Shown piece by piece: positions 2,173 through 2,791 of a stretch of DNA of 64,000 nt. Position numbers and translations under genes: made by a program. The notes under the pieces were generated by a model that saw nothing but the letters and a program-made list of their open reading frames with translations, had not been told where the DNA came from and ran no database searches. The stretch lies in assembly GCF_045037415.1 (NCBI RefSeq), contig NZ_CP173438.1, one strand, 5' to 3'. The stretch comes from Escherichia coli (lineage in GTDB: Bacteria; Pseudomonadota; Gammaproteobacteria; Enterobacterales; Enterobacteriaceae). Position 1 is the first letter of the stretch. Every line of letters begins with the position of its first letter.

Positions 2173-2388
2173 TTATCCGGGGCGATTTTCTGACCTTATC
2201 CGGTCCAGGGCATAAGTAATACCTTCTGCAAAAACAGAAGTATCAAACTGCTTTTGTATTCCCTGAAAATGAAAAGCGGCACGACAGACACTCAGTTCTC
2301 CGCGGTATAACCGGATAATATCTTCCAGAACATTGTTCACTGCTTCAGCACGGCGCTGATGTTCTGTTAACGTTAATCGGGGATTCAT
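2173..2388 (-). CDS. hypothetical protein (71 aa)
   Basis: ORF-track entry; strong TAAGGAG 7-8 nt upstream of ATG on the minus strand. Confidence 0.5.
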   Translation of the reverse strand: MNPRLTLTEHQRRAEAVNNVLEDIIRLYRGELSVCRAAFHFQGIQKQFDTSVFAEGITYALDRIRSENRPG

Positions 2389-2791
2389 GATGCACTCCTT
2401 AAATGATGATTTTTATGTACTCACCGGCAAAATATTCTGCCGATTACTGAACACGCATCCGGCACCTCAGGTTTTGATTTATTCTGGTTTTTTCGATATC
2501 CCGGACCAGGTTGATCACGACCAGAAAAAGTGCCGGTGTTTTATTGATACGCTGATATGGCTTCGGGATAACAGCTATATTCGTTACTCTCAGTTGCTGG
2601 CTGTGGGAGCGGCTGATGTCGTCCTCACGGAAAAAACGCTCTGTCTGCTCAATGCCATGCCGACCTTTCTGCAGCCCCGGCCCGTACCATTTAAAGAGTC
2701 ACTTCTGGATGCAGTAAAAACCGGTGAAAATGCAGTCATCGCTGAATGCGTATCCCGGATTATGCGTTACGTGTTTAATGAACGTAAGTGA
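2387..2791 (+). CDS. hypothetical protein (134 aa)
   Basis: ORF-track entry with plausible coding composition; its start codon overlaps the start codon of 2173..2388(-), so one of the two calls may be wrong. Confidence 0.35.
   Translation: MMHSLNDDFYVLTGKIFCRLLNTHPAPQVLIYSGFFDIPDQVDHDQKKCRCFIDTLIWLRDNSYIRYSQLLAVGAADVVLTEKTLCLLNAMPTFLQPRPVPFKESLLDAVKTGENAVIAECVSRIMRYVFNERK

What the first reader, a model, noticed from the sequence alone, without database searches (positions are those of the whole stretch)
2380..2395. Two divergent ORFs with overlapping start codons
The minus-strand 71-aa gene starts at 2388..2386 with a strong TAAGGAG RBS, while the plus-strand 134-aa ORF starts at 2387..2389, one base offset. 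Each would need its promoter and RBS inside the other's coding sequence. Either one is not a real gene, or this is a tightly interlocked, mutually interfering pair.
Basis: seen in the sequence. Interest (0 to 1): 0.3.

Follow-up and report, generated by a model that had tools for sequence, protein, structure and literature searches.

The report
Interlocked head-to-head prophage gene pair
Two real, conserved prophage genes on opposite strands share their start codons (CATG), and each carries the other's ribosome-binding site in its first codons; the same layout recurs in prophages of many bacteria and standard gene finders often miss it.

Summary
The minus-strand ATG is the complement of 2386-2388. 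Plus-strand ATGs lie at 2387-2389 and 2390-2392. A TAAGGAG ribosome-binding site for the minus gene is the complement of 2395-2401.

Both ORFs are real genes.
- The 134-aa plus-strand protein belongs to a large uncharacterised family of about 140-aa winged-helix proteins: 843 clusters, AF2 pLDDT 90, pN/pS 0.14.
- The 71-aa minus-strand protein is a confident three-helix bundle (pLDDT 91, pN/pS 0.34) with homologues in Pseudomonas, Serratia, Janthinobacterium and Gulbenkiania prophages.

The start-to-start overlap is conserved. It occurs in 105 of 140 loci and 10 of 25 clusters at 50% identity, against a 7.4% background. It is found in BcepMu-like, P2-like and other prophages. The junction consensus is GGAG-N8-CATG-N5-CTCC, so each gene's Shine-Dalgarno sequence lies inside its partner's codons.

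The winged-helix gene usually lies antisense inside a phage operon, and the small gene runs with that operon. The best-supported reading is therefore a mobile accessory cassette with either/or expression. This is inferred, not shown. Neither promoters nor function could be determined. No Pfam, NCBIfam, PADLOC or Rfam match was found.

The parts
2173..2388 (-). Small gene, 71 aa, predicted three-helix bundle. It is a diverged member of a small-protein family that sits head-to-head with the winged-helix gene.
   Evidence: ORF; PGAP CDS WP_001069611; phrog_4490. Serratia homologue at 31% identity in the same position. A profile built without the E. coli and Serratia sequences hits it at E 1.8e-4 and the Serratia 73-aa protein at 1.7e-9. 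dN/dS 0.3-0.5. AF2 pLDDT 91.
2387..2791 (+). Big gene, 134 aa (133 aa if it starts at 2390). Winged-helix domain plus a C-terminal helical hairpin. Member of a large uncharacterised prophage family.
2386..2392 (.). CATGATG junction: minus-strand start codon (complement of 2386-2388) and two candidate plus-strand start codons (2387-2389, 2390-2392).
   Evidence: Sequence. CATG is conserved at the junction in all head-to-head loci.
2395..2401 (-). Shine-Dalgarno sequence TAAGGAG of the small gene, embedded in codons 3-5 of the big gene (His-Ser-Leu; the Ser TCC codon supplies GGA).
   Evidence: Sequence. 96% of head-to-head representatives have an SD core of at least 4 nt at this place, against 15% of family members without a partner.
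2379..2383 (+). Weak Shine-Dalgarno-like GGGGA of the big gene, embedded in codons 2-4 of the small gene.
   Evidence: Sequence. In other clades the equivalent element is GGAG or AAGG, 7-9 nt from the ATG.
2767..3495 (-). 242-aa gene convergent with the big gene; their 3' ends overlap by 25 nt. It has an N-terminal P-loop domain and a C-terminal domain (residues 173-239, nt 2779-2979) that is a paralogue of the small-protein family. It is the upstream gene of the leftward unit that would read antisense through the big gene into the small gene.
   Evidence: weak AAA and KAP hits; phrog_3787; small-family profile E 7e-13.
2087..2126 (+). G+C-rich hairpin (GACCAGCCCGGC-TTTCGGGT-GCCGGGCTGGTC) followed by GTTCTTTC on the plus strand, just left of the small gene's stop codon. 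It is a likely plus-strand terminator that shields the cassette from rightward read-through.
   Evidence: Sequence. It is conserved in position in Serratia, where it has a TCGCTCTTTTTT tail. A compensatory C-G to A-T change occurs in ABU 83972. The simple terminator scan did not report it.

Best explanation
This is a mobile two-gene prophage accessory cassette. It comprises a gene for a winged-helix protein of about 135-145 aa ('big', plus strand here) and a gene for a helical-bundle protein of about 63-85 aa ('small', minus strand here). The two genes are joined head-to-head so that their start codons share the palindrome CATG, and each gene's SD sequence lies within the first five codons of the other.

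Shown: both are real protein-coding genes, and the junction geometry has been inherited with them across very divergent prophages.

Inferred: the big gene usually lies antisense inside a phage transcription unit, while the small gene runs with that unit. A transcript of the surrounding unit therefore carries the small gene's ribosome-binding site and is fully complementary to the big mRNA. Conversely, any leadered big mRNA is complementary to the small gene's initiation region. I therefore expect either/or expression. The winged-helix protein would be made from its own, still unmapped, promoter when the surrounding unit is silent, that is, in the lysogen. It would be shut off by promoter occlusion, polymerase collision and RNA pairing when that unit fires, which at the same time switches on the small protein. 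The small protein is most likely a partner or antagonist of the winged-helix protein. The biochemical function of the cassette is unknown. Its placement in the P2 gpA-gpQ hotspot suggests, but does not show, a role in inter-phage competition or lysogenic conversion.
For: Both genes are real.
- The big family has 843 clusters, all full-length and about 125-155 aa.
- pN/pS is 0.14 (big) and 0.34 (small), and the annotated frames are the only stop-free ones in 24-25 P2-type sequences. dN/dS is 0.2-0.6 in the E. coli and Serratia type.
- AF2 pLDDT is 90 and 91.
- Small proteins of most clades are homologous to each other.

The interlock is conserved.
- The CATG junction with a divergent ORF of 63-106 aa occurs in 105 of 140 loci and in 10 of 25 clusters at 50% identity, against a 7.4% background.
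- The junction consensus is GGAG-N8-CATG-N5-CTCC.
- An SD for the small gene is present in 96% of paired family members against 15% of unpaired ones.
- Hosts include E. coli, Klebsiella, Salmonella, Serratia, Pseudomonas, Stutzerimonas, Janthinobacterium, Gulbenkiania and Desulfovibrio.

Orientation.
- The gene downstream of the big gene's 3' end is on the small gene's strand in most loci. In non-P2 clades both flanks are on that strand in 21 of 34 cases.
- The cassette is wedged between terminase and head-tail adaptor/portal genes, between tail genes, or between lysis genes, with stop-to-stop gaps of 1-4 nt.
- A natural 325-bp deletion of the big gene leaves the small gene 54 nt downstream of the 247-aa gene.
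- The initiation region is unusually unstructured as RNA on the plus strand (z +2.5 here, +1.75 in the P2 type) and not more structured than shuffles on the minus strand (z +0.9 and +1.1), so neither strand hides its start site.
- The P2-type copies lie between gpA/DinI and cos/portal. PMC9122126 describes this locus as a hotspot of anti-phage systems.
Against: - No transcription or translation data were available, so reciprocal expression is purely inferred.
- No convincing or positionally conserved sigma-70 promoter was found for either gene. In the P2-type clade the 60 nt upstream of the big gene's SD are the most variable part of the cassette.
- About half of the family clusters lack the small partner, so the winged-helix protein can work alone.
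- P2-type and Desulfovibrio small partners are not detectably homologous to the main small family.
- In P2-type loci the left flank is often on the other strand.
- No known defence, toxin or regulator family matches.
- Physical interaction of the two proteins was not tested.
Confidence: 0.55

Rival explanations
1. Compaction without regulation. The overlap is a by-product of squeezing an antisense insertion into a tightly packed phage operon. Both genes are real but are expressed independently, and the shared CATG and embedded SDs have no regulatory role.
For: Phage genomes are compact. Stop-to-stop gaps of 1-4 nt at the other end of the big gene show the same economy. No operator or promoter was found at the junction. 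Many family members work without a partner.
Against: Divergent overlaps are the most strongly avoided class in prokaryotes (331 of about 15,000 overlaps; PMC2174442). Yet this one is kept across clades that share only 25-30% identity and across different phage backbones. The Ser TCC codon that supplies the partner's SD is tied to the presence of the partner. Complementarity of the two initiation regions follows from the geometry whenever both strands are transcribed.
Confidence: 0.22
2. Co-expressed partners. Both genes are transcribed outward from a very compact bidirectional or leaderless start region. They are made together and act as a complex, such as a regulator plus co-factor or a two-component defence or exclusion system.
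For: The two genes have been co-inherited for a long time. In some clades weak -10-like hexamers (GAGTTT, GAGTCT) end 6 nt before the big ATG, compatible with a leaderless start. The P2-hotspot location fits defence cassettes (PMC9122126).
Against: Good SDs at canonical spacing on both sides argue for leadered mRNAs, which must then overlap. The footprints of two RNA polymerases firing outward from a shared point would clash. A natural variant keeps the small gene without the big gene. There is no PADLOC hit.
Confidence: 0.15
3. One of the two ORFs is not a gene, or a start codon is mis-assigned so that the genes do not really touch.
For: The GenBank record of phage PhiKM annotates only the 71-aa gene. 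Divergent overlaps in annotations are often errors (PMC2478687, abstract seen).
Against: Both frames show purifying selection, confident folds and wide homologue families. The 71-aa ORF has no internal Met, and its only alternative start (GTG, codon 17) would remove most of helix 1. The next possible start of the 134-aa ORF after 2390 (TTG, codon 30) would delete the invariant N-terminal helix. At most the overlap becomes a 1-nt gap.
Confidence: 0.03

Closest known systems
Phage morons (accessory genes inserted between conserved phage genes and expressed from the prophage)
   Same: The cassette is present or absent between otherwise syntenic phage genes. It occurs on unrelated backbones: BcepMu-like, P2-like, and phages with terminase/portal or tail-gene neighbours. 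It is often on the opposite strand to its neighbours.
   Different: No own promoter or terminator could be identified. It is a two-gene unit whose halves face outward and share start codons, which is not a described feature of morons.
Temperate-phage developmental switches built on closely spaced opposing promoters (lambda PR/PRM; P2 Pe/Pc and 186 pR/pL with transcriptional interference). From my own knowledge.
   Same: Both involve a DNA-binding-fold protein and a small partner encoded on opposite strands, with the expectation that transcription of one side interferes with the other.
   Different: Those switches have an intergenic operator/promoter region, and the proteins belong to known repressor, Cro, Cox or Apl families. 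Here there is no intergenic DNA at all, the ribosome-binding sites are inside the partner's codons, and the proteins match no repressor family. The prophage has its own separate repressor/Ner-like region (window 463-1101).
Divergent (head-to-head) overlapping gene pairs seen in genome surveys
   Same: Start regions overlap on opposite strands, and the SD and initiation codons constrain the partner's coding sequence, as discussed in PMC2174442.
   Different: Surveys treat them as rare and often as annotation artefacts. This pair is conserved as a family-wide trait with a fixed CATG phase over very divergent sequences.
DUF2513 / YjcQ-type and MarR-type winged-helix proteins
   Different: No member of a 46-sequence sample reaches any Pfam winged-helix or DUF2513 model at E<=0.01. 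The protein has an extra N-terminal helix and a C-terminal helical hairpin. DNA binding is untested.

Membership tests
Genuine divergent overlapping gene pair | Both ORFs are protein-coding (conserved, under purifying selection, foldable) | tested here: met
Genuine divergent overlapping gene pair | Start codons overlap or abut on opposite strands, with no plausible alternative starts | tested here: met
   There is a 2-nt overlap if the big gene starts at 2387 and a 1-nt gap if it starts at 2390. Other starts would delete conserved helices.
Genuine divergent overlapping gene pair | The overlap is conserved in distant homologues | tested here: met
Pfam DUF2513 (PF10711) | Match to the Pfam model at its gathering score | tested here: not met
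   No hit for the window protein at E<=0.1, for homologues at E<=1, or for 46 family members at E<=0.01.
MarR/PadR-type winged-helix transcription regulators | Winged-helix fold | tested here: met
MarR/PadR-type winged-helix transcription regulators | Sequence membership in a curated regulator family, and sequence-specific DNA binding | tested here: not met
   No Pfam or NCBIfam hit. DNA binding cannot be tested with these tools.
Phage moron | Accessory insertion between conserved phage genes, variably present | tested here: met
   natural deletion variant.
Phage moron | Own promoter and terminator; expression from the repressed prophage | tested here: inconclusive
   No consistent promoter or terminator was found. 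Expression cannot be tested here.
Type II toxin-antitoxin module | Two co-directional genes in one autoregulated operon, one carrying a recognisable toxin fold | tested here: not met
   The genes are divergent. There are no toxin or antitoxin family hits. The small gene persists intact without the big gene.
Known anti-phage defence systems (PADLOC-DB 2.0) | HMM match of either protein to a catalogued defence protein | tested here: not met
   No hits for nine proteins of the cassette. There are only weak P-loop hits for the 242-aa neighbour.

The most novel reading that the evidence does not exclude
The cassette is a previously undescribed kind of genetic interlock. Two protein genes have translation-initiation regions that are each other's reverse complement (GGAG-N8-CATG-N5-CTCC). 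The pair therefore behaves as a hard-wired either/or switch at the RNA level. It couples a prophage-expressed winged-helix effector to an antagonist that is produced only when the surrounding lytic operon is transcribed. It would be a widespread solution for carrying a lysogeny-only gene inside a lytic operon, and one that Prodigal-based annotation misses systematically.
Probability: 0.3. Interest if true: 0.75.

Novelty: new variant of a known kind. Interest (0 to 1): 0.55.

Why it matters
The cassette is common. It is found in roughly 9% of complete E. coli genomes (490-580 of 5,426) and on hundreds of Pseudomonas aeruginosa contigs. Both of its protein families are entirely uncharacterised.

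It is a clean, deeply conserved counter-example to the rule that head-to-head overlaps are annotation errors. Prodigal forbids 5'-5' overlaps on opposite strands (PMC2848648). As a result, metagenome and phage annotations drop the small gene, truncate the big one, or call a wrong-strand ORF.

If the either/or model holds, it shows how phages can embed a lysogeny-specific gene inside a lytic operon with no intergenic DNA. It also offers a minimal natural design for mutually exclusive expression. The P2-hotspot location makes the pair a candidate for phage-phage competition functions.

Tried and rejected
1. Promoter search. The built-in scan and my own -35/-10 scan of 26 representatives found no strong or positionally conserved sigma-70 promoter for either gene. 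The nucleotide conservation profile of the P2-type clade shows constraint only from about -13 to +60 of the big start.
2. Operator hypothesis. The palindrome CGGCAAAATATTCTGCCG (2425-2442) looked like an operator or a -10 element. Palindromicity at this site is no greater than expected from the G-K-I-F-A peptide under random synonymous codons (63 paired and 30 unpaired loci). Rejected.
3. Self-sequestering hairpins (SD pairing with the downstream CUCC). These are only weak 3-5-bp stems, and the region is less structured than shuffles. Rejected as a strong element.
5. Homology of the P2-type and Desulfovibrio small partners to the main small family: not detected (hhalign probability 2.5%; hmmsearch E 0.04).
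6. Literature: no paper mentions DUF2513 or the RefSeq protein accessions.
7. The genome-contig scan returned a single locus.
8. Locus L070 is a frameshift-ridden contig and was not used for selection analysis.

Full report
**Context.** The window is 100% identical over 1200-3600 to Escherichia phage PhiKM, a Bcepmuvirus, that is, a BcepMu-like transposable phage. The same DNA is a chromosomal prophage in about 580 of 5,426 complete E. coli genomes, many of them ST131. From left to right the local order is:
- an IclR-like HTH gene and a Ner-like gene (minus strand);
- a repressor-like HTH gene (plus strand);
- a Dam methylase, the 71-aa gene (both minus strand);
- the 134-aa gene (plus strand);
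- a 242-aa P-loop gene (minus strand);
- the holin/SLT lysis genes and the Mu-type terminase and portal genes (plus strand).

**The observation.** The sequence at 2378-2405 reads cggggattCATGATGcactccttaaat. The minus-strand ORF (2173..2388, 71 aa) starts with the complement of CAT 2386-2388. The plus-strand ORF (2387..2791, 134 aa) starts at ATG 2387-2389, and a second in-frame ATG lies at 2390-2392. The TAAGGAG Shine-Dalgarno (SD) sequence of the minus gene is the complement of 2395-2401, 6 nt from its ATG and inside codons 3-5 of the plus gene. A weak GGGGA (2379-2383) precedes the plus ATGs by 3 or 6 nt and lies inside codons 2-4 of the minus gene. NCBI PGAP annotates both genes with the 2-nt overlap. 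The PhiKM GenBank record omits the plus gene.

**Both ORFs are genes.**
- *Family size.* The 134-aa protein matches phrog_2266 and the 71-aa protein matches phrog_4490. A profile of the 134-aa protein and five relatives finds 843 clusters at 50% identity with E<=1e-3, and 156 with E<=1e-10. Essentially all are 125-155 aa and matched end to end.
- *A related prophage.* A Serratia BcepMu-like prophage carries a 53%-identical 139-aa protein and a 31%-identical 73-aa protein in the same head-to-head position, again with CATGATG.
- *Selection, E. coli and Serratia type.* dN/dS is 0.2-0.6 for the big gene and 0.3-0.5 for the small gene.
- *Selection, P2-type clade.* In 24-25 distinct sequences the annotated frames have pN/pS 0.14 (big) and 0.34 (small). 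They are the only stop-free frames of the six.
- *Alternative starts.* These are implausible. The small ORF has no internal Met, and its only other start (GTG, codon 17) would remove most of helix 1. The next start of the big ORF after 2390 is a TTG at codon 30, beyond the invariant N-terminal helix.

**The interlock is conserved.**
- *P2-like phages.* Midge, ST147-VIM1phi7.1 and FSL SP-004 encode a 143-aa protein about 31% identical to the big protein. Next to it is a divergent 63-64-aa gene whose start overlaps by the same 2 nt.
- *First locus set.* In 65 loci (L001-L065; 54 from an IMG/VR scan plus the phage, E. coli-genome and Serratia loci fetched earlier), every copy of the big gene has a divergent ORF of 63-86 aa starting at the CATG.
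- *A more divergent set.* In 70 viral contigs only 24-41% identical to the query, 38 had CATG plus an antisense ORF of 66-106 aa.
- *Overall.* 105 of 140 loci and 10 of 25 single-linkage clusters at 50% identity have the architecture. For other ORFs of at least 100 aa in the same loci the figure is 7.4% (binomial P 6e-6; at 80% clustering, 26 of 53 clusters, P 5e-16).
- *Variants.* Three further loci have a small-family gene abutting the start in a slightly different way, for example CATATG.
- *Junction consensus.* Across 26 representatives it is GGAG-N8-CATG-N5-CTCC.
- *SD for the small gene.* An SD core of at least 4 nt, lying in codons 2-7 of the big gene, is present in 96% of paired representatives but only 15% of unpaired ones. 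It is usually supplied by a Ser TCC codon just before the near-invariant Asn.
- *SD for the big gene.* 81% of paired representatives have an SD of at least 4 nt inside the small gene.
- *Which plus ATG.* Counted from the first ATG, the E. coli protein (M-M-H-S-L-N-D-D-F) has Ser4 and Phe9 exactly as in the Pseudomonas clade (M-A-V-S-N-I-E-K-F). The overlapping start is therefore the ancestral geometry, although the second ATG has the better SD spacing. This remains unresolved.
- *Hosts.* Paired forms occur in E. coli, Klebsiella, Salmonella, Serratia, Pseudomonas (including P. aeruginosa, on hundreds of contigs), Stutzerimonas, Janthinobacterium, Gulbenkiania and Desulfovibrio.

**The small partners.** Small proteins from most clades form one family. 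Its core motif is ..ELRRVVADQLTGRMDWVRARxYW..LP....ELAxAL...
- A profile built without the E. coli and Serratia sequences hits the Serratia 73-aa protein (E 1.7e-9) and the window's 71-aa protein (E 1.8e-4).
- The same profile hits, more strongly, the Serratia 89-aa protein (6e-14) and residues 173-239 of the window's 242-aa protein (7e-13).
- In BcepMu-like prophages the big gene is therefore flanked on both sides by small-family paralogues on the opposite strand. One sits head-to-head. The other is tail-to-tail with a 25-37-nt overlap, and in E. coli it is fused to a P-loop domain.
- The P2-type and Desulfovibrio partners are not detectably related to this family, although they occupy the same position.
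- The family has no Pfam domain and no meaningful names in the databases.

**Placement.**
- The big gene is typically a lone gene antisense to its neighbours, and the small gene is co-directional with them.
- Insertion sites include terminase to head-tail adaptor/portal (a Pseudomonas clade), head closure/tail sheath to tail protein (P. aeruginosa), and between holins and endolysin of a P2-like phage. Gaps of 1-4 nt separate the stop of the big gene from the stop of the upstream operon gene.
- Both flanks are on the small gene's strand in 21 of 34 paired non-P2 loci. The same holds in 22 of 35 unpaired loci, so antisense insertion is a property of the winged-helix gene family as a whole.
- The P2-type copies lie between gpA/DinI and cos/portal. 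PMC9122126 describes this locus as a hotspot of anti-phage systems.
- In about 7 of 498 E. coli genomes a 325-bp deletion removes the big gene. The intact small gene is left 54 nt downstream of the 247-aa gene. The small gene is therefore tolerated without the big gene and looks like part of the leftward unit.

**How it most likely works.**
- *Shown.* There are two real genes. They have reciprocal SDs in each other's first codons and a shared CATG. The module is co-inherited, and the winged-helix gene is placed antisense.
- *Inferred.* Any transcript of the surrounding unit that reaches the small gene is antisense to the whole big mRNA. Any leadered big mRNA is antisense to the small gene's initiation region. 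Polymerases initiating for the big gene must start inside or beyond the small gene, facing the on-coming operon transcription. I therefore expect mutually exclusive expression. The winged-helix protein would be made while the surrounding unit is silent. It would be lost, and the small protein produced, when that unit fires. The small protein most likely acts on the winged-helix protein.
- *Confidence.* I put about 0.95 on 'two real genes in a conserved interlocked cassette'. I put about 0.45 on the either/or model, which gives 0.55 for the combined statement.

**What argues against it, or remains open.** No promoter could be located. A palindrome at 2425-2442 is explained by the G-K-I-F-A codons. 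The junction RNA is unstructured rather than forming a sequestering hairpin. About half of the family lacks the partner. No function can be assigned from any library.

**Comparison with known systems.** Divergent overlaps are the rarest and most strongly avoided class of gene overlap (331 of about 15,000 in 58 genomes; PMC2174442). Prodigal explicitly forbids them (PMC2848648). This explains several annotation errors:
- metagenome gene calls miss the small gene in locus L066;
- they shift the big start in Serratia to the second ATG;
- they truncate the big protein to 112 aa in Gulbenkiania;
- they call a 77-aa plus-strand ORF over the 85-aa small-family gene in L069.

The cassette resembles a moron in its distribution and a phage switch in its logic. 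It fails the sequence-membership tests for DUF2513, MarR-type regulators, toxin-antitoxin modules and catalogued defence systems. I rate it a new variant of a known kind: an antisense accessory cassette, or divergent overlapping pair. I put a 0.3 chance on it representing a distinct, generalisable interlock mechanism.

Noticed in passing
window 2767-3495 (minus strand); domain at 2779-2979: The 242-aa gene convergent with the big gene has a C-terminal domain (residues 173-239) homologous to the small-protein family, and it scores better than the 71-aa protein itself. It is fused to an N-terminal P-loop NTPase domain. The Serratia counterpart is an 89-aa stand-alone version. Other E. coli genomes carry the P-loop part with different C-termini, annotated 'KAP family NTPase' or 'ABC transporter ATPase'.
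   Followed up: partly
window 2087-2126: A 12-bp G+C-rich hairpin is followed by GTTCTTTC on the plus strand, between dam and the small gene. Its position is conserved in Serratia, where the tail is T-rich, and ABU 83972 has a compensatory C-G to A-T change. It looks like a plus-strand terminator facing the repressor gene's read-through, but the simple terminator scan did not report it.
   Followed up: partly
L063 2999-3053 and L064; about 7 of 498 E. coli genomes: A natural 325-bp deletion removes nearly the whole big gene. It keeps its first 17 codons, the small gene and the 247-aa gene.
   Followed up: partly
L001 (PhiKM), L066 288-509, L069 about 2251-2508, Gulbenkiania cluster: Annotation failures caused by the head-to-head overlap. 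The big gene is missing in the PhiKM record. The small gene is uncalled in a Desulfovibrio-type contig. A 77-aa plus-strand ORF is called over the 85-aa small-family gene. The big protein is truncated to 112 aa.
   Followed up: yes
L009 336-527, L010 2293-2487, L011 313-504, L066 288-509: The small partners in P2-like phages and in the Desulfovibrio-type contig occupy exactly the same CATG head-to-head position. They show no detectable homology to the main small family. This is either extreme divergence or a non-homologous replacement.
   Followed up: partly
window 2387-2791 compared with L003 (ABU 83972) and L018: The big gene differs by 6 nonsynonymous and 0 synonymous changes between the window and these variants. 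This may hint at diversifying selection, but the counts are too small to test.
   Followed up: no
window 1218-2072 / 1218-1982 (minus strand): [quoted passage not shown]
   Followed up: no
L081 2245-2643 (minus strand): In the Pseudomonas 83-aa clade the small gene's reading frame stays open for about 50 codons upstream of the CATG, antisense to the big gene. A longer 132-aa product cannot be excluded from sequence alone.
   Followed up: no
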